The position numbers and the translations under genes are program-made. From the NCBI GenBank assembly GCA_965205955.1, contig OZ242192.1, positions 1,477,118-1,541,117 of the forward strand: DNA of 64,000 bases, read 5' to 3'. Of this stretch, positions 57,879 to 63,284 are shown piece after piece. The notes beneath the pieces are model-generated. The model was given only the letters and a program-made list of their open reading frames with translations, had not been told where the DNA came from and did no database searches. How positions within the stretch are numbered: the first letter of the stretch is position 1; the number at the start of each line of letters is the position of its first letter. This DNA is from Gammaproteobacteria bacterium. GTDB lineage: Bacteria; Pseudomonadota; Gammaproteobacteria; Eutrophobiales; Eutrophobiaceae.

Positions 57879-58829
57879 TTGTTAGAATCGGACCTGATTG
57901 ACCGTTATTTCAAGCCTGCTGCAACCTCGCCTGCGGTGATACTGGGCATAGGTGATGATGCCGCGATTATCGATGTTCCCGCGGATGCGCAGTTGGCGCT
58001 GACCGTAGATACCTTGGTGCAGGGCGTGCATTTTTTCCCGGATACCGATCCCTGCAGCATCGGGTATAAAGCCGTTGCGGTCAATCTCAGCGATCTGGCG
58101 GCAATGGGGGCCAGACCGCACTGGCTGACCCTGTCGTTGACGCTGCCGGAGATCGACCACGATTGGCTGCGGCATTTTTCCAGCGGCTTTCACGAGCTTG
58201 GCCGTGAATTCAGCCTTGATTTAATCGGAGGGGATCTCAGCAGGGGGCCGCTTTCGATTACGGTGCAGGCATGTGGCCTGGTACCGAGGGGGCGGGTGCC
58301 GACCAGGAGAAATGCCGCCCCCGGTGATTTGATCTATATAACCGGCCAGGTAGGCGCCGCCGGCCTCGCGCTCAAACTAAAAAAAAAAGAACTACCCGAC
58401 AACGGCCAGTACACCCTTGAACACACCTGCCTGAACCGCCCATACCCCAGGATTGAAGCCGGATTACTCCTGCGCGAGCATGCCACCAGCATGATCGACA
58501 TATCCGACGGCCTGATCGCCGATCTCGGCCATATCATGCGGCAAAGCCGGGTAGGCGCAGAGATAAATCTGGACAAATTACCGCTAACGCCCAACCTGCG
58601 CAAACTGGGAGAAGAAACCGCATGGAACATCGCACTCAGCTCCGGTGATGATTACGAATTGTGTTTTAGCTTGGTTGGCAAGGATAACGCGAATCTGTTG
58701 CAAGAGATCAGAAATCATTGCCCCGTTACTCAGATAGGCCGCATTACCGATAGTAATACACTGACTTTATTGAAACCTGATGGTAAAGAAATGATAGCGA
58801 ATGAATCCGGTTACCAACACTTTGCATAG
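57879..58829 (+). CDS. thiL: Thiamine-monophosphate kinase.
   Basis: AIR-synthase-like fold motifs: ...ILGIGDDAAII...DTLVQGVHF... Confidence 0.85.
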   Translation: MLESDLIDRYFKPAATSPAVILGIGDDAAIIDVPADAQLALTVDTLVQGVHFFPDTDPCSIGYKAVAVNLSDLAAMGARPHWLTLSLTLPEIDHDWLRHFSSGFHELGREFSLDLIGGDLSRGPLSITVQACGLVPRGRVPTRRNAAPGDLIYITGQVGAAGLALKLKKKELPDNGQYTLEHTCLNRPYPRIEAGLLLREHATSMIDISDGLIADLGHIMRQSRVGAEINLDKLPLTPNLRKLGEETAWNIALSSGDDYELCFSLVGKDNANLLQEIRNHCPVTQIGRITDSNTLTLLKPDGKEMIANESGYQHFA

Positions 58830-59046
58830 TGGACTCGTATACTGGTCGCGAAAAAATATCACCAGATGCCCCACCAACGCCCGGTAGATTTCCTCAACTA
58901 CCGAAGAATCAAGCGGCGCGGAAAGAGCTACACCGTTACTCTCGGCGCCGATGGCTGGGGGTAGGGGGTATTTCGAGGTTCATTTCGGCATCTTTTTCAG
59001 ATTGTGGGCGGTGGATCAAACCCTTATATGAATGGAGCCAGGCTGA

Positions 59047-59985
59047 CTAGCAACACCTGGAAAGAGCATATTCTTTGTGCCAGGCTAAGGCGGAATCGTG
59101 GGGGGCTAAATTAGAATCACGGGAGTACTGAATCAAAGATCCATCATAATCCCCAAGAGAAGCATTTTCATTGATGGCTAAAATTTGCTTCGGCACCACC
59201 ACACGATACTTTTCATTAATCCAGAACATCCCTCTGTCAAACGACCAATGATGTTTGCGACACAATGCCATGCCGTTTCTTATGTCATCGGCACCGGCAA
59301 GGCGTTTCGGAACAATGTGCGCAGCCTCGGTTTCATAAACGCCGGTCAAGTCAACCAAAGAACCGGCACATATACAGCACTGATGGTTGTATGCCCGCAG
59401 AACATGGTGGCGAAATGCAGCAGAGCGCCCCGCACGTACTGAGTGAACTAAATTTATTGCCTCTTCGTCATAAAGGGAAAAATCATTTTGAGGGGTACCA
59501 TCAACAGCAGAAAACCCCTCTGAAAATTTGTCCGATCTCAATACTGCTTGATCAGAAAATGCAGCAGTGTAGCCAAACTCAAAATTAATCAAACAGGAAG
59601 GGTCGATACGAGAAATTATTCTGCTTCTGGAAGGTGGAGCACCGAGAAGAAAACCGCTTCGGAACATTTTTAAAAGCAATTCTTTATTGCTGATACGTTT
59701 TCTAACAGTTGTTCCCGGCGTGGGTTTGGAAATAGACTGCAAACAGGGGGGAACATTTCTGATCGGTAAGTAGGAGATACGATACTGAACAGCGCGTTTA
59801 TCAACATTTCCCCCCAGAACAGAATAGCCGCCAAAGCCTGGAGAGCACGGGGCAACACCGGTTAAATTCCTGTAGTCTGATTCAAATTCGGTCTGTTTTT
59901 TGGGAGGAACCTGCACGTCGTATTTCAGGGCAACATCGGGGTTGGATAAGTACCCCATAGCCTCGCATAGTTCTTTTGGTGTCAT
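59047..59985 (-). CDS. HNH-family endonuclease, the putative restriction endonuclease of a restriction-modification module.
   Basis: C-terminal HNH core ...YNHQCCICAGS...AAHIVPKRLAGADDIRNGMALCRKHHWSFDRGMF. The ATG at 59985 lies 1 nt from the upstream methyltransferase stop (59987). The longer ORF to 60111 would overlap the methyltransferase by 125 nt. Confidence 0.7.
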   Translation of the reverse strand: MTPKELCEAMGYLSNPDVALKYDVQVPPKKQTEFESDYRNLTGVAPCSPGFGGYSVLGGNVDKRAVQYRISYLPIRNVPPCLQSISKPTPGTTVRKRISNKELLLKMFRSGFLLGAPPSRSRIISRIDPSCLINFEFGYTAAFSDQAVLRSDKFSEGFSAVDGTPQNDFSLYDEEAINLVHSVRAGRSAAFRHHVLRAYNHQCCICAGSLVDLTGVYETEAAHIVPKRLAGADDIRNGMALCRKHHWSFDRGMFWINEKYRVVVPKQILAINENASLGDYDGSLIQYSRDSNLAPHDSALAWHKEYALSRCC

Positions 59986-59986
59986 T

Positions 59987-60799
59987 TCACTCGCCCTCTT
60001 TTCTGAATACGAGAAGGTATTCATGTACTTTATTGATAATGAACTTGTGCGGGTACCCAAGGGGGCGCATTTGGTTGTAGTCTTTTTGCCTGTCCCAAAC
60101 GATAATGTCATTTAAAACAAGATTGCTGCGCTGTTTGACAACTGCTACGGAATCCTGGTGCAGAGGGTAAAATCGACTTCCCTTGCGCAAATCCATCACG
60201 TTTAATATCAGATAACGACGGTCTTTTAACGCAATATCGATATTTTCAATCACGTCACCCAAAGCAGCCAGGAACTCGTCATAAGAAGATATGTTGCCAA
60301 TATCTGAATCCGAATCCGAATAGGAAATCGCCGCCTTTCCATCGCTGGACCGTCGCCTGTTCAAAATATCCCAGTATGGAGGCGAAGTAATACATACATC
60401 AACCGACTCTTCCGGCACTACATTAAGGAATGCGGAACGCTCTCTCGCGTCGCAAATCTCATAACGCCAGATCGGGTTATCTTCATTATTTTCGGCAAGA
60501 TCAAACAGACCAATGCGGTTAAGAAATAGATTCTTGTATTTTTCATTAATATCCAGCCCCACTGAAGGCATACCGGAACGAGTGGCGGCAACCAAGGTGG
60601 AACCTGAGCCTGCAAAGGGATCGAGGATAAAATCGCTTGGCCCCTGGGCATAGCAACTCAATATTTTCTGGACCAGTGAAACGGGGAAAGATGCGGGGTG
60701 AGATTTGCGATCTCCATCCCTGGCAAGATCTCTCCAAATGCTGAAAGAATTTTGCAACCAATCACGCCCACTTAACGCATTAGCGCGAGTAGCCATCAC
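59987..60799 (-). CDS. N6-adenine/N4-cytosine DNA methyltransferase (N6_N4 methylase family).
   Basis: Motif I is FILDPFAGSGSTLVAA and motif IV VCITSPPYWD. A 4-nt ATGA overlap with the upstream MT-A70 gene is present. Confidence 0.75.
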   Translation of the reverse strand: MMATRANALSGRDWLQNSFSIWRDLARDGDRKSHPASFPVSLVQKILSCYAQGPSDFILDPFAGSGSTLVAATRSGMPSVGLDINEKYKNLFLNRIGLFDLAENNEDNPIWRYEICDARERSAFLNVVPEESVDVCITSPPYWDILNRRRSSDGKAAISYSDSDSDIGNISSYDEFLAALGDVIENIDIALKDRRYLILNVMDLRKGSRFYPLHQDSVAVVKQRSNLVLNDIIVWDRQKDYNQMRPLGYPHKFIINKVHEYLLVFRKEGE

Positions 60800-61374
60800 A
60801 AAACTCCCTCCGCTTCATTCCCCCAGCTATCAAATCCTTCGTGGGAGCGGCGGGAAAAAACATCCAGGCGATGGGGGGGGAAATAACGCCGGATATCTTC
60901 GTACAGGATCGTTGGTTTTTCGCTATGTCTTTTTGCACTGGATTCAAATATCGTTTTCATCTTGCCGAGCGAGCTTTTAGAAAATTTACACTTCCCGCGA
61001 TAACCAAAAAGACAATGCTCCGTTGTAATTTGGTAGGGGCCAAATGGGCAGGGGCCGGTTCCCTTGTCCCAGGTCAACATCGTGTAATACCGAAAACCCC
61101 ATAAATCCATCAACTCAAATGCCTGTTGCAAAATAGGTTTGCCGCTGGAGCGGGAACGGCTGTTGGTAGCCCAAAGCCAAATAAACGCATCTTCGGCGGC
61201 CCATTTGGAAAGAGAAACACAACGGAATATCTCATCCTGCGTCATAGTCGGATAATCCAGTAACTTTCCTTGGTTGGGACGAACGCTGCGCCACCCTGTT
61301 TTACCCTGATCCCACGGTGGATCAACCACAATAGAACGATAAGAACCGGTAAATGGAGGATGAACCAGCTTCAT
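60796..61374 (-). CDS. MT-A70-family DNA N6-adenine methyltransferase.
   Basis: SIVVDPPW (DPPW motif) near the N-terminus. Start is taken at MKLVHPPF (61374). The ORF extension to 61449 is the translated terminator palindrome. Confidence 0.65.
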   Translation of the reverse strand: MKLVHPPFTGSYRSIVVDPPWDQGKTGWRSVRPNQGKLLDYPTMTQDEIFRCVSLSKWAAEDAFIWLWATNSRSRSSGKPILQQAFELMDLWGFRYYTMLTWDKGTGPCPFGPYQITTEHCLFGYRGKCKFSKSSLGKMKTIFESSAKRHSEKPTILYEDIRRYFPPHRLDVFSRRSHEGFDSWGNEAEGVL

Positions 61375-61417
61375 GATTTTAGAAAATCTATATGGTATGT
61401 TGATATGGTACCAAAAC

Positions 61418-61447
61418 CCACTAGTAGCCGCGGCTACTAGTGGCGAC
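61418..61447 (-). terminator. Perfect 26-nt palindrome followed by a T-run, probably the rho-independent terminator of fumA (minus strand).
   Basis: CCACTAGTAGCCG|CGGCTACTAGTGG forms a 13-bp perfect stem. On the minus strand it is followed by GTTTTGG, 30 nt after the fumA stop. Confidence 0.6.
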
Positions 61448-61476: not shown

Positions 61477-62994
61477 CTATGTCTCCGTCAATCTTTTATC
61501 CATGATGATCTCCTGCCATTTCTGCGGTCCGGTTTGATGAACAGAGTTGCCGCTTGTATCGACTGCAACGGTGACGGGCATATCTTTGACTTCGAATTCA
61601 TGGATCGCCTCCATCCCCAGCTCCTCAAAGGCGAGGACCTTCGCATTGGTGATTGCCTTGGAGACGAGATAGGCCGCGCCGCCGATTGCGATAAGGTAGA
61701 CGGCCTGATGTTTTTTTATTGCCTCGATTGCAACCGGGCCTCGTTCGGCCTTGCCAATCATGCCGATTAATCCGGTTTTATCCAGCATCATTTCAGTGAA
61801 GCTATCCATACGCGTTGCCGTTGTTGGTCCGGCAGGGCCAACAATCTCCTTTCCTACCGGATCGACCGGGCCCACATAATAGATGAATCTGTTGTTGAAA
61901 TCGACCGGCAAGGACTCGTTCCTGTCCAGCATTTCCTTAATGCGCCTGTGCGCCGCATCACGGCCGGTCAGCATCCGGCCGGATAGCAGCAGCGTTTCAC
62001 CGGGTTTCCATGTCTTGATATCCTCCCGGGTAACCGTATCCAGATTTATCCTGCGAGTTGATGGGCCGGTTTCCCAGGGAATATCCGGCCAGTCCTCCAG
62101 GCTGGGAGGGGTTTGAAATGCCGGACCATTGCCTTCCAGCACAAAATGGGTGTGGCGGGTAGCGGCGCAATTCGGGATCATTGCGACCGGCTTGTTTGCG
62201 GCATGGGTGGGATAGTCTTTTATTTTCACGTCCAATACCGTAGTGAGGCCGCCCAGTCCCTGTGCGCCGATGCCGAGTTGATTTACTCTTTCAAAAATTT
62301 CCAGACGCAGTTCATCAATGACATTTTTCGGCCCGTTGGCCTGTAATTCATGAATATCAATGGGCGCCATCAGTGATTCCTTGGCCATGACCATGGCCTT
62401 TTCGGCCGTGCCGCCTATCCCTATCCCCAGCATCCCCGGCGGACACCAGCCGGCGCCCATTGTGGGCACAGTGTTCACCACCCACTCGGCAATATCATCC
62501 GACGGATTCAGCATTACGAATTTCGATTTTGCCTCCGAGCCGCCCCCTTTGGCAGCAACCTGTATTTCTACCGTTGCGCCGGGCACGAGCTCCATATGAA
62601 TGACTGCCGGTGTGTTATCACCGGTGTTTTTTCTGGCGCCGGCGGGATCAGCCAGTATGGAAGCGCGCAACTTATTGTCCGGGTGATGGTAGGCCCTGCG
62701 CACACCTTCATTGATCATATCGGTGAGTGATAACTCGGCATCCCAGCGCACGTCCATGCCGGTTTTGACGAACACCGTGACAATGCCTGTGTCCTGGCAG
62801 ACGGGGCGGTGTCCCTCGGCGCACATTCGCGAATTGATCAGTATTTGCGCCATGGCCTCTTTTGCAGCCGTTGATTCCTCTTTTTCATAGGCGTCGTTCA
62901 GCGCCCGAATGAAATCGGGCGGATGATAATAAGAGATAAACTGCAATGCGTCGGCAATGCTGTCAATCACGTCGTCTTGTTTGATTGTTGTCAT
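61477..62994 (-). CDS. fumA: Class I (Fe-S) fumarate hydratase.
   Basis: Start at MTTIKQDDVIDSIA.... The N-terminal catalytic alpha domain ...CQDTGIVTVF... and the C-terminal beta domain are both present. Confidence 0.9.
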   Translation of the reverse strand: MTTIKQDDVIDSIADALQFISYYHPPDFIRALNDAYEKEESTAAKEAMAQILINSRMCAEGHRPVCQDTGIVTVFVKTGMDVRWDAELSLTDMINEGVRRAYHHPDNKLRASILADPAGARKNTGDNTPAVIHMELVPGATVEIQVAAKGGGSEAKSKFVMLNPSDDIAEWVVNTVPTMGAGWCPPGMLGIGIGGTAEKAMVMAKESLMAPIDIHELQANGPKNVIDELRLEIFERVNQLGIGAQGLGGLTTVLDVKIKDYPTHAANKPVAMIPNCAATRHTHFVLEGNGPAFQTPPSLEDWPDIPWETGPSTRRINLDTVTREDIKTWKPGETLLLSGRMLTGRDAAHRRIKEMLDRNESLPVDFNNRFIYYVGPVDPVGKEIVGPAGPTTATRMDSFTEMMLDKTGLIGMIGKAERGPVAIEAIKKHQAVYLIAIGGAAYLVSKAITNAKVLAFEELGMEAIHEFEVKDMPVTVAVDTSGNSVHQTGPQKWQEIIMDKRLTET

Positions 62995-63284
62995 AATAAA
63001 ATGAGCCCTGTACCATGTAATATGTTTATTATAGCATTTTACCATGTTAGAGTAGCTTGAATAATTCTACAAATCGGAGCCGATTGCAGTATTTGAAAAA
63101 ATGCTTGATTTTCTGCTGAATTTTTTTGAAAATACATGCAATTAGAAATGTTATGTATAGTGATAATACACTTGCAAAGTTAAATAACGATAATTTCTCG
63201 AAAGCGGCGGCTATCTGGATGACCGGGTGCAGACAACAATGCGGCCAGTCAAGCTGAAAAATCATCAAATAAACAGGGTAAAGT

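What the first reader, a model, noticed from the sequence alone, without database searches (positions are those of the whole stretch)
59047..61374. Second, compact restriction-modification-like module inserted between thiL and fumA: MT-A70 methyltransferase, N6/N4 methyltransferase, HNH endonuclease
Three minus-strand genes are translationally coupled. There is an ATGA overlap between the two methyltransferase genes, and a 1-nt gap between the second methyltransferase stop and the HNH ATG. They encode a DPPW-type MT-A70 adenine methyltransferase, an SPPY/FxGxG N6_N4 methyltransferase and a 313-aa HNH nuclease. Two methyltransferases plus one nuclease is the pattern of Type IIS systems recognising asymmetric sites. 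The module interrupts an otherwise syntenic housekeeping run (the rib operon, nusB, thiL, then fumA), and its GC is slightly below host. Sequence specificity is unknown, and this combination of methyltransferase classes with an HNH enzyme is uncommon.
Basis: partly seen in the sequence, partly recalled or inferred. Interest (0 to 1): 0.65.

Follow-up and report, generated by a model that had tools for sequence, protein, structure and literature searches.

The report
Mobile two-methylase, HNH-nuclease restriction cassette
The three genes are real and almost certainly form a horizontally acquired restriction-modification cassette of a known general type; the only new element is the nuclease's unannotated front domain, which in other microbes is attached to other kinds of nuclease.

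Summary
Three intact, tightly packed minus-strand genes at 59047-61374 encode a bare MT-A70 adenine methyltransferase (DPPW, 192 aa), a circularly permuted N6_N4 methyltransferase (FAGSG before SPPY, 269 aa, probably N4-cytosine) and a 312-aa HNH_2 nuclease. The M1/M2 junction is TGATG/GTGA, not ATGA.

The same cassette, at about 73% nucleotide identity across the ORFs only, sits in at least three unrelated chromosomal contexts elsewhere. Its GC is 46.5% against 53.2% for the window. The nearest thiL relative lacks it. It is therefore a mobile unit, not a core gene set.

The nuclease has a confidently modelled N-terminal domain of about 150 aa with no Pfam, PDB-sequence or significant fold match. 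Its C-terminal HNH domain is closest to McrA/TagI/ScoMcrA-type restriction nucleases.

The N-domain forms a small family of 138 clusters. It occurs alone or fused to HNH_2, HNH or GIY-YIG/T5orf172 domains, with a weak match to a restriction-endonuclease-fold domain. In all ten contexts read, it directly follows a methyltransferase gene.

The closest characterised analogue is HpyAII: m6A methylase, m4C methylase and a Type IIS HNH enzyme. The Type IIS reading is plausible but unproven. I file it as a new member of a known kind, of moderate interest.

The parts
60796..61374 (-). M1: MT-A70-family methyltransferase, 192 aa, essentially a bare catalytic domain. DPPW (motif IV) at residue 18, so predicted to methylate N6-adenine. 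No Shine-Dalgarno sequence upstream.
   Evidence: PF05063 at E 3e-20, covering 172/172 profile positions. PADLOC MTase_II PDLC03262 at E 1e-33. The PDB best hits are ciliate MTA1-type MT-A70 DNA m6A methyltransferases, E 3e-11. It is 59-88% identical to the M1 of every related cassette, and DPPW is conserved in all of them.
59987..60796 (-). M2: circularly permuted N6_N4-family methyltransferase, 269 aa. Motifs X and I (FAGSG, residue 61) precede motif IV (SPPY, residue 138), and there is no large target-recognition domain. Predicted to methylate N4-cytosine.
   Evidence: PF01555 at E 3e-27, matched in two pieces in swapped order. PDB hits to TTHA0409 and to N4-cytosine methyltransferases likewise come in two swapped pieces. 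PADLOC PDLC03363 aligns colinearly over the full length. SPPY is conserved in all eight M2 homologues read, including the C-terminal half of the fused L104 methylase. Serine at the first position of motif IV marks N4C enzymes (PMC4738411).
59536..59985 (-). R, N-terminal domain (residues 1-150). An undescribed alpha/beta domain and the presumed DNA-recognition module.
   Evidence: The AlphaFold2 domain model has mean pLDDT 92.9 and pTM 0.87. There is no Pfam hit even at E<=10 and no PDB sequence hit for the profile. The Foldseek best is E 0.26, TM 0.33 in PDB and E 0.17, TM 0.40 in BFVD. A profile search finds 138 clusters. K63, R69 and G111 are invariant, and GYL11-13, F34, Y38 and R97 nearly invariant, across 42 diverse members.
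59071..59445 (-). R, C-terminal HNH_2 nuclease domain (residues about 181-305), with an intact Cys/His metal and catalytic set.
   Evidence: PF13391 at E 3e-11. NCBIfam PT-DNA_restrict at 82 bits over residues 181-305, below that family's cutoff. PDB TagI HNH domain at E 3e-4. C203, C204, C206, H223, D233, D234, N237, C242, H245, H246 and D250 are invariant in 27 homologues.
59047..59985 (-). R: complete 312-aa nuclease gene. An AGAGGG Shine-Dalgarno-like sequence lies inside the M2 3' end, and a 1-nt gap follows the M2 stop.
   Evidence: One search finds 28 full-length homologues at 38-99% identity.
61418..61443 (-). Perfect 26-bp palindrome CCACTAGTAGCCGCGGCTACTAGTGG followed by GTTTTGG, lying between the fumA stop and M1. 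Most likely the fumA terminator and the upstream boundary of the insert; not part of the mobile unit.
   Evidence: Terminator-like scan and repeat I3. It is present in the same-species contig L001 but absent from the cassettes in L002, L003 and L005.
58836..58970 (-). Remnant of the N-terminus (about 45 codons) of a TauD/TfdA-family dioxygenase gene. It lies between the R stop and the thiL 3' end and is a decay scar at the downstream boundary.
   Evidence: Six-frame translation. PF02668 at E 7e-6, 26.5 bits against a cutoff of 27, profile positions 3-47.

Best explanation
This is a self-contained, horizontally acquired Type II restriction-modification cassette.

M1 (MT-A70, DPPW) is predicted to methylate N6 of an adenine. 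M2 (permuted N6_N4, SPPY) is predicted to methylate N4 of a cytosine in the same target. Together they would protect host DNA.

R is a two-domain enzyme. Its N-terminal domain of about 150 aa binds the unmethylated target. Its C-terminal HNH_2 domain cuts nearby, probably a few bases outside the site, as other reader-HNH_2 enzymes do.

The adenine-plus-cytosine methylase pair points to an asymmetric site with no adenine on one strand, that is Type IIS behaviour like HpyAII (GAAGA/TCTTC).

Shown: gene integrity, family assignments, catalytic motifs, operon packing, mobility, and conserved linkage of the N-domain to methyltransferases. Inferred: base specificity of each methylase, DNA binding by the N-domain, cleavage geometry, site asymmetry, and protection by methylation.
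For: -
- Tight coupling is shown: a 1-nt overlap, a 1-nt gap, and Shine-Dalgarno-like sequences inside the upstream genes.
- The three-gene cassette recurs in unrelated contexts. DNA similarity of about 73% is limited to window 61359-59065, the ORFs.
- GC is about 7 points below the window.
- HNH catalytic and zinc residues are invariant across 27 homologues.
- The N-domain is confidently folded. It is found alone or fused to HNH_2, HNH or GIY-YIG/T5orf172 domains, with a weak match to a REase-fold domain.
- In all ten contexts read, the N-domain gene comes directly after a methyltransferase gene. Eight of them carry an m6A-type enzyme plus an SPPY N6_N4 enzyme, fused in one case. Two carry MT-A70 alone.
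- M1 and M2 are far more conserved than R: 59-88% and 50-79% against 37-69%. This is the usual R-M pattern.
- Precedents exist. HpyAII has an m6A M1, an m4C M2 and a Type IIS enzyme with HNH residues H328-H359 (PMC7494987). Hin4II/HpyAV have the gene order M1-M2-R with a C-terminal HNH (PMC2816704). SBD-HNH enzymes cut 4-10 nt outside their site (PMC7461809).
Against: - There is no biochemical or methylome evidence, and the recognition sequence is unknown.
- The 39%-identity clade has only MT-A70 plus R. A single methylase can therefore suffice for a related nuclease, which weakens the argument for an asymmetric site.
- Both methylases lack an obvious target-recognition domain.
- The nearest relatives of the HNH domain are modification-dependent enzymes: TagI, and the ScoMcrA-type NCBIfam model.
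- DNA binding by the N-domain rests only on domain architecture and on conserved basic residues K63, R69 and R97.
- No k-mer avoidance signal points to a site.
Confidence: 0.7

Rival explanations
1. It is a Type II system with a symmetric (Type IIP-like) site and two methylases, as in DpnII (dpnM-dpnA-dpnB). One methylase would be the main double-strand enzyme. The other would be auxiliary, for example acting on single-stranded or incoming DNA, or giving redundant protection on another base.
For: - The gene order M-M-R in one direction matches the DpnII layout. That layout is from established knowledge and was not tested here.
- A sister clade functions with MT-A70 alone.
- In L104 the adenine methylase is a D12 Dam-like domain fused to the M2-type domain.
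- The weak, recurrent fold hits of the N-domain are to LAGLIDADG/DOD domains, which bind DNA as symmetric dimers.
Against: - M2 carries SPPY in every homologue. This marks N4-cytosine enzymes (PMC4738411), unlike the DPPY adenine enzyme DpnA, which is only a distant hit.
- Adenine-plus-cytosine pairs are the documented solution for asymmetric sites (PMC2816704, PMC7494987).
- The LAGLIDADG similarity is below any accepted threshold, with TM 0.33-0.41.
Confidence: 0.15
2. The N-domain is a shared specificity or reader module for the whole system. The two methylases lack target-recognition domains and would depend on it, or on each other as a heterodimer like METTL3-METTL14 or MTA1-MTA9, for target choice. 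The nuclease domain would be an exchangeable effector. This would be a Type I/III-like logic in a compact Type II-sized cassette.
For: - M1 is a bare MT-A70 domain, with 172 of 172 profile positions inside 192 aa. M2 has no insert of target-recognition-domain size.
- The closest solved relatives of M1 work in multi-subunit complexes (their biology is from established knowledge).
- The N-domain exists as a stand-alone 145-aa protein immediately after the methylase pair.
- Candidate contact residues are conserved family-wide, and M1 identity is very high across systems with different nucleases.
Against: - No interaction evidence of any kind exists.
- Small beta-class methylases such as M.MboIIA recognise DNA without separate subunits (established knowledge).
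- A PADLOC Type II methylase model of about 200 positions shows that such short MT-A70 enzymes are an existing class.
- A stand-alone DNA-binding subunit with a separate nuclease subunit explains the architectures equally well.
Confidence: 0.08
3. R is a modification-dependent (Type IV-like) nuclease. Its N-domain would read a foreign base modification, and the adjacent methylases would serve an unrelated or self-marking role.
For: - The nearest relatives of the HNH domain are TagI and the ScoMcrA/SprMcrA-type NCBIfam model.
- The fusion repertoire of the N-domain resembles that of RAMA and HARE-HTH, which are predicted m6A discriminators (PMC4738411).
Against: - R is translationally packed behind two active-looking methylases in every context read. 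A nuclease attacking their product would be suicidal.
- There is no hit to the SRA, EVE, YTH, ASCH, SBD, RAMA or HARE-HTH models, even at E<=10.
- No fold match to PUA-like readers was found.
Confidence: 0.04
4. The genes are phage-type orphan methyltransferases next to a homing or selfish HNH endonuclease, with no restriction function.
For: Both methylases have phage relatives: phrog_359 at E 3e-36 and phrog_498 at E 1e-27. One related locus, L104, has a CI-like repressor nearby.
Against: - The N-domain was not found in 50,697 phage records, in IMG/VR or in PHROGs.
- No phage genes flank the cassette.
- The linkage of methylase and N-domain-nuclease is conserved across chromosomal contexts.
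- The HNH domain scores above threshold for HNH_2 but below threshold for classical HNH PF01844.
Confidence: 0.03

Closest known systems
HpyAII (and its isoschizomer MboII) Type IIS R-M system, GAAGA 8/7
   Same: Both have two exocyclic methyltransferases, one m6A and one m4C, plus one nuclease. The nuclease has its HNH catalytic motif in the C-terminal part (PMC7494987). The nuclease fold is exchangeable within one specificity family: HpyAII is HNH and MboII is PD-(D/E)XK. This parallels the N-domain family here, which is joined to HNH_2, HNH or GIY-YIG, with a weak match to a REase fold.
   Different: - The adenine methylase here is MT-A70 class, not the beta-class N6_N4 enzyme M.MboIIA. M.MboIIA matches only M2, weakly, at E 9e-6.
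- M2 here is circularly permuted.
- R is 312 aa, whereas the HNH residues of HpyAII lie near position 330-360.
- No sequence similarity of the N-domain to any PADLOC, NCBIfam or Pfam restriction model was found.
Hin4II / HpyAV Type IIS R-M systems, CCTTC 6/5
   Same: The gene order is M1, M2, R on one strand. There is one cytosine methylase and one adenine methylase because one strand lacks adenine. R has a C-terminal HNH motif (PMC2816704).
   Different: Their cytosine methylase is C5, not N4. Their methylases are 387-445 aa, or fused into 823 aa, and R is about 418 aa. No sequence similarity was detected.
Reader-HNH modification-dependent endonucleases (TagI, ScoMcrA/SprMcrA, EcoWI, VcaM4I)
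   Same: They share the same HNH_2/McrA-like catalytic domain at the C-terminus, behind an N-terminal reader domain. TagI gives E 3e-4, NCBIfam NF045808 gives 82 bits, and Foldseek's top hits are VcaM4I and TagI. These enzymes cut a few nucleotides outside the element they read (PMC7461809).
   Different: Those enzymes lack a cognate methylase and read modified DNA through SRA, EVE or SBD domains.
RAMA and HARE-HTH domains (Iyer, Zhang and Aravind 2016)
   Same: These domains are fused to restriction nucleases of several unrelated folds (REase, HNH, URI/GIY-YIG, T5orf172) in adenine-methylating R-M systems (PMC4738411). The N-domain family shows the same architectural pattern.
   Different: No hit to any Pfam model was found for six family members at E<=10, so the N-domain is not a detectable RAMA or HARE-HTH member. 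No fusions to methylases were seen among the members examined.

Membership tests
Type II restriction-modification system | A DNA methyltransferase with intact SAM-binding and catalytic motifs | tested here: met
   M1 has DPPW and matches full-length MT-A70. M2 has FAGSG plus SPPY and matches full-length N6_N4.
Type II restriction-modification system | A separate nuclease gene with an intact active site, adjacent to and co-transcribed with the methylase | tested here: met
   The HNH_2 domain has invariant Cys/His/Asn residues. Junctions are a 1-nt overlap and a 1-nt gap. The linkage is conserved in ten contexts.
Type II restriction-modification system | Sequence-specific cleavage that is blocked by the cognate methylation | not testable with these tools
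   This needs a methylome and in vitro cleavage. The k-mer avoidance analysis in the 64-kb window was uninformative.
Type IIS subtype | Asymmetric recognition sequence, normally served by two strand-specific methylases | tested here: inconclusive
   Two methylases with adenine-type (DPPW) and cytosine-type (SPPY) motifs are present in eight of the ten contexts read. However, a related clade has only one methylase and another has three. The site itself is unknown.
Type IIS subtype | Separate recognition and cleavage domains, with cleavage at a fixed distance outside the site | tested here: inconclusive
   The two-domain architecture is shown: a confident N-domain, a low-confidence linker at 160-190, then the HNH domain. 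Cleavage position is not testable here.
Type IV / modification-dependent reader-HNH endonucleases (TagI, ScoMcrA, EcoWI) | HNH_2/McrA-type catalytic domain | tested here: met
Type IV / modification-dependent reader-HNH endonucleases (TagI, ScoMcrA, EcoWI) | A modified-base reader domain (SRA, EVE, YTH, ASCH or SBD) | tested here: not met
   No Pfam hit at E<=10 for the N-domain or for five relatives. No fold match to PUA-like or SBD structures.
Type IV / modification-dependent reader-HNH endonucleases (TagI, ScoMcrA, EcoWI) | No cognate methyltransferase in the operon | tested here: not met
   One to three methylase genes precede or flank R in every context.
RAMA domain family (PF18755) | Match to the RAMA profile | tested here: not met
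   hmmscan against Pfam-A at E<=10 returned nothing relevant for six members. Whether this Pfam copy holds the RAMA model under that accession rests on my memory.
LAGLIDADG / DOD homing-endonuclease fold (for the N-domain) | Structural match at fold level (TM>=0.5 or a significant E-value) and the alpha-beta-beta-alpha-beta-beta-alpha topology | tested here: not met
   PF01844 scores below threshold (18.6 against 21.4 bits) while HNH_2 scores above. Phage HNH-endonuclease PHROGs score weaker than two unannotated PHROGs. No intron, intein or immunity gene is nearby.
DpnII-like two-methylase Type IIP system | Second methylase is an adenine (DPPY) enzyme acting on the same palindromic site | tested here: not met
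   M2 has SPPY in all homologues. DpnA is only a distant partial hit at E 3e-6. Site symmetry is not testable.

The most novel reading that the evidence does not exclude
The N-terminal domain of R (about 150 aa) would define an undescribed family of DNA-target or methylation-state reader modules. It is confidently folded, has no Pfam, PDB-sequence or significant fold match, and spans 138 clusters at 50% identity. It is dedicated to one conserved pair of methylases that lack target-recognition domains: MT-A70 or Dam-type m6A plus a permuted SPPY N4C type. It would work as an exchangeable targeting unit, either fused to nucleases of several unrelated folds or acting alone with a nuclease supplied in trans. 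It might also supply specificity to the methylases themselves.
Probability: 0.15. Interest if true: 0.6.

Novelty: new member of a known kind. Interest (0 to 1): 0.35.

Why it matters
As a restriction-modification cassette it is ordinary: one more acquired defence or selfish module in an uncultured gammaproteobacterium.

Two points give it some value.

First, it defines a coherent, previously unannotated restriction-enzyme family. A conserved recognition-type domain travels with a highly conserved m6A plus probable m4C methylase pair, while the catalytic nuclease domain is swapped between HNH_2, HNH and GIY-YIG, possibly also a REase fold. This is a clean natural example of nuclease-domain shuffling on a fixed targeting scaffold. 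It is also a possible source of a new specificity for enzyme discovery.

Second, M1 is a minimal bacterial MT-A70 DNA methylase. It is close in size to the catalytic cores of the eukaryotic METTL3 and MTA1 enzymes, and could serve as a simple model for how that fold selects DNA targets.

Tried and rejected
- **Empty-site test.** ThiL scans of GTDB species genomes (best 48% identity) and of JGI metagenomes (best 51% over the full length, 57% for fragments) found no close relative. The large protein search gave one relative at 69%. Its locus lacks both the cassette and fumA after thiL. No true empty site was obtained. The look-up of the 100%-identical ThiL returned nothing.
- **RAMA, HARE-HTH or PUA-like reader identity.** Rejected: no Pfam hit at E<=10.
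- **Search for the N-domain in annotated records.** No match in plasmids, phages or IMG/VR. P0084 matched only through its HNH part.
- **Recognition site from k-mer avoidance in the window.** Only generic palindrome depletion (GGCC, CGCG, CTAG) appeared, so this was uninformative.
- **Flanking repeats or target duplications.** Only short, chance-level repeats were found. The 26-bp palindrome is local and not part of the cassette.
- **Link between the TauD remnant and the TauD genes near the cassettes in L003 and L005.** No similarity, so rejected.
- **Apparent M1 truncation in L005.** This was a gene-call artefact. The ORF with DPPW is intact.
- **The longer 354-aa and 217-aa ORFs from the mechanical ORF list.** Rejected as starts. 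They overlap the upstream gene or the terminator palindrome, and homologues begin at the internal ATGs.
Full report
**1. Observation**

The mechanical ORF list and the sequence confirm three co-oriented minus-strand genes between thiL (57879-58829, + strand) and a class I fumarate hydratase gene (61477-63045, - strand). With the internal ATG starts that homologues and an independent gene caller use, they are as follows.

| Gene | Coordinates | Length |
|---|---|---|
| M1 | 61374-60796 | 192 aa |
| M2 | 60796-59987 | 269 aa |
| R | 59985-59047 | 312 aa |

- Pfam assigns M1 to MT-A70 (E 3e-20, whole profile), M2 to N6_N4_Mtase (E 3e-27) and R to HNH_2 (E 3e-11).
- The M1/M2 junction is GTGATG. 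It gives a 1-nt TGATG overlap, or a 4-nt GTGA overlap, but not ATGA.
- Shine-Dalgarno-like GGAGG/AGAGGG sequences lie inside the 3' ends of M1 and M2.
- Cassette GC is 46.5%, against 53.2% for the window and 50.6-53.1% for the flanking genes.

**2. The methyltransferases**

M1 is little more than an MT-A70 catalytic domain.
- DPPW sits at residue 18.
- Its closest solved relatives are ciliate MTA1-type DNA m6A methyltransferases and METTL3.
- It matches a PADLOC Type II methylase model of about 200 positions at E 1e-33.

M2 belongs to the N6_N4 family but is circularly permuted.
- The SAM-binding FAGSG (residue 61) comes before SPPY (residue 138).
- As a result, Pfam and PDB relatives align in two swapped pieces.
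- One PADLOC Type II model aligns colinearly over the full length.
- Serine at the first position of motif IV is the mark of N4-cytosine enzymes (PMC4738411). The best PDB hits include N4-cytosine methyltransferases.

I therefore predict that M1 makes m6A and M2 makes m4C. Neither protein has an insert the size of a target-recognition domain.

**3. The nuclease**

The C-terminal part of R (about residues 181-305) is an HNH_2/McrA-like domain.
- Its best matches are the NCBIfam model for phosphorothioate-dependent restriction enzymes (82 bits, below that family's cutoff), the TagI HNH domain in PDB (E 3e-4) and PADLOC HNH models, including one labelled Type II.
- Classical HNH PF01844 scores below threshold.
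- In 27 homologues the Cys, His, Asp and Asn residues of the metal and catalytic sites are invariant. The nuclease is therefore under selection.

The N-terminal 150 residues have no hit in Pfam even at E<=10. They have none in NCBIfam, PADLOC or PHROGs, and none in PDB sequences with a profile.
- AlphaFold2 models this domain with mean pLDDT 92.9 and pTM 0.87. The full-length model is confident only in this part.
- Foldseek finds nothing significant in PDB or BFVD.
- The recurrent top hits are LAGLIDADG/DOD homing-endonuclease domains, but at TM 0.33-0.41 and with a different order of secondary-structure elements. I do not assign that fold.

**4. Relatives and context**

A word-indexed search found 28 full-length R homologues at 38-99% identity, nearly all from metagenomes. 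Their loci show the cassette behaving as a unit.

| Locus | Context or composition |
|---|---|
| L001 | Same species; identical layout at 99.2% nucleotide identity |
| L002 (GCA_002453935.1) | Cassette between clpB and trpF |
| L003, L005 | Cassette between an S-methyltransferase gene and an acyltransferase gene |
| L053, L054 | Cassette plus a further N6_N4 methylase after R |
| L004, L050-L052 (39%-identity clade) | MT-A70 plus R only |

Nucleotide similarity between the window and L002, L003 and L005 is about 73%. It runs only from 61359 to about 59065-59155, that is, the ORFs. There are no shared ends or repeats.

The nearest thiL relative recovered is 69% identical. It keeps glyA-nrdR-rib-nusB-thiL, then continues with H4MPT-pathway genes. 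It has neither fumA nor the cassette there.

A remnant of about 45 codons of a TauD-family gene lies between R and thiL. A perfect 26-bp palindromic terminator lies between fumA and M1.

Together these results show a mobile cassette at a rearranged junction. They do not show an insertion into a demonstrably ancestral thiL-fumA pair.

**5. The N-domain family**

A profile of the N-domain, searched against 1.84 billion cluster representatives, gave 138 hits.
- Most are stand-alone proteins of about 145 aa.
- Others carry the domain in front of HNH_2 (P0072, P0079), classical HNH (P0084, P0095, P0099) or T5orf172/GIY-YIG (P0066).
- One (P0104) carries it in front of a domain with a weak restriction-endonuclease-fold match at E 0.008.
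- Some members have N-terminal extensions.

Three of these distant members were looked up, and each sits directly after methylases.

| Locus | Gene order |
|---|---|
| L099 | MT-A70, SPPY N6_N4, stand-alone N-domain, DUF5131 |
| L103 | MT-A70, SPPY N6_N4, N-domain-GIY-YIG fusion |
| L104 | Fused Dam-like D12 plus SPPY N6_N4 methylase, stand-alone N-domain, then an ORF with a weak LAGLIDADG-type hit |

- The window's M1 is 74%, 68% and 59% identical to the M1 of L099, L103 and L004.
- The window's M2 is 58%, 51% and 50% identical to the M2 of L099 and L103 and to the C-terminal half of the L104 fusion.
- The N-domains themselves are only about 25-40% identical.
- Across 42 diverse members K63, R69 and G111 are invariant. 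GYL11-13, F34, Y38 and R97 are nearly invariant.
- The domain was not found in plasmid or phage records or in IMG/VR.

**6. Mechanism**

The simplest reading is a Type II R-M cassette. M1 and M2 mark the target. R binds the unmarked target through its N-domain and cuts with its HNH domain.
- The adenine-plus-cytosine methylase pair is the documented solution for asymmetric sites that lack adenine on one strand (PMC2816704).
- The characterised HpyAII system has exactly this composition: an m6A M1, an m4C M2 and a Type IIS nuclease with C-terminal HNH residues. Its isoschizomer MboII uses a PD-(D/E)XK nuclease instead (PMC7494987).
- Reader-HNH_2 enzymes cut 4-10 nt outside the element they read (PMC7461809).

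I therefore favour Type IIS-like behaviour, at perhaps 0.6. I put R-M function as such at about 0.85.

The single-methylase clade and the three-methylase clade show that the number of methylases is not fixed. This keeps a symmetric-site reading alive.

A modification-dependent reading is unlikely, because R is always packed behind methylases and has no known reader domain.

**7. Comparison with known systems, and novelty**

In function and layout the cassette resembles HpyAII/MboII and Hin4II/HpyAV. In its catalytic domain it resembles TagI and ScoMcrA-type enzymes. In the behaviour of its N-domain it resembles the RAMA and HARE-HTH pattern described by Iyer et al., without being a detectable member of those families.

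It differs from the characterised systems in three ways:
- the MT-A70 class of the adenine methylase;
- the permuted N4C-type methylase;
- the unannotated N-domain.

Restriction nucleases are notoriously diverse, so an unannotated recognition domain is expected rather than surprising. I classify the finding as a new member of a known kind, with interest 0.35.

The more novel reading is that the N-domain is a dedicated, exchangeable targeting or reader module that may also guide the two methylases, which lack target-recognition domains. This is not excluded, but nothing beyond architecture supports it (probability about 0.15).

**8. Limits**

- There is no access to REBASE, no methylome and no biochemistry.
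- Only ten genomic contexts of the 138-cluster family could be read.
- The source organism has no close sequenced relative in the collections searched.

Noticed in passing
window 58836-58970 (- strand): A remnant of about 45 codons of the N-terminus of a TauD/TfdA-family dioxygenase (PF02668 at E 7e-6, just under the cutoff). It is wedged between the R stop and the thiL 3' end. It is a gene-decay scar at the cassette's downstream boundary. It is unrelated to the TauD-family genes near the cassettes in L003 and L005.
   Followed up: yes
window 61418-61443: A perfect 26-bp palindrome, CCACTAGTAGCCGCGGCTACTAGTGG, followed by GTTTTGG. It lies 34 nt after the fumA stop and 44 nt before the M1 ATG. 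It looks like a terminator, is conserved in L001 and is absent from the other cassettes. It contains SpeI-like ACTAGT and SacII-like CCGCGG sites.
   Followed up: partly
window 61375-61403: M1 has no Shine-Dalgarno sequence. The only promoter-like match, TCAACA-16-TAAAAT, ends 2 nt before the ATG. How M1 is transcribed and initiated is unclear; it could be read-through from fumA past the palindrome, or a leaderless or short-leader mRNA.
   Followed up: no
L004 7346-8948; L050-L052: A sister clade at about 39% R identity carries only MT-A70 (225 aa, 23-nt overlap with R) plus R, with no N6_N4 methylase. It is inserted beside an ABC-transporter, peptidase C39 and YcaO peptide-maturation cluster.
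   Followed up: partly
L053 3124-3858; L054 3097-3858: In this clade a further N6_N4 methyltransferase (244-253 aa, conventional motif order) follows R. This makes a four-gene M-M-R-M unit.
   Followed up: no
L099 3456-8122: A stand-alone N-domain protein (147 aa) follows MT-A70 plus an SPPY N6_N4 methylase, and is itself followed by a DUF5131 (Gp37/Gp68, radical-SAM-superfamily) gene. Next come an AAA_15/AAA_21 ATPase plus DUF4276 pair, and an anti-Pycsar-like metallo-beta-lactamase-fold gene lies upstream. This is a defence-island-like setting.
   Followed up: no
L104 510-4126: A fused Dam-like (MethyltransfD12, DPPY) plus SPPY N6_N4 methylase of 610 aa is followed by a stand-alone N-domain. 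After that comes a truncated ORF with an 'AYLLGLIVGRG' motif and a weak PF05204 homing-endonuclease hit (E 0.004). A CI-like HTH/peptidase S24 repressor lies upstream, so this may be a prophage.
   Followed up: partly
L105 9001-19401: In the nearest relative, nusB and thiL are called as one 466-aa product. They are followed by mch, RimK-like, CitG and fae (H4MPT C1-transfer genes). This suggests the lineage is methylotrophic.
   Followed up: no
L106 2980-6675 (Helicobacter sp. plasmid NZ_AP024817.1): A colinear (permuted) M2-like methylase at 27% identity is followed by a second DNA methyltransferase and a 586-aa hypothetical protein. This is another unannotated two-methylase-plus-one arrangement.
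   Followed up: no
window, whole 64 kb: The tetranucleotides GGCC, CGCG, ACGT and CTAG, and the hexamer ACGCGT (2 observed against 16 expected), are markedly under-represented relative to a maximal-order Markov expectation.
   Followed up: no
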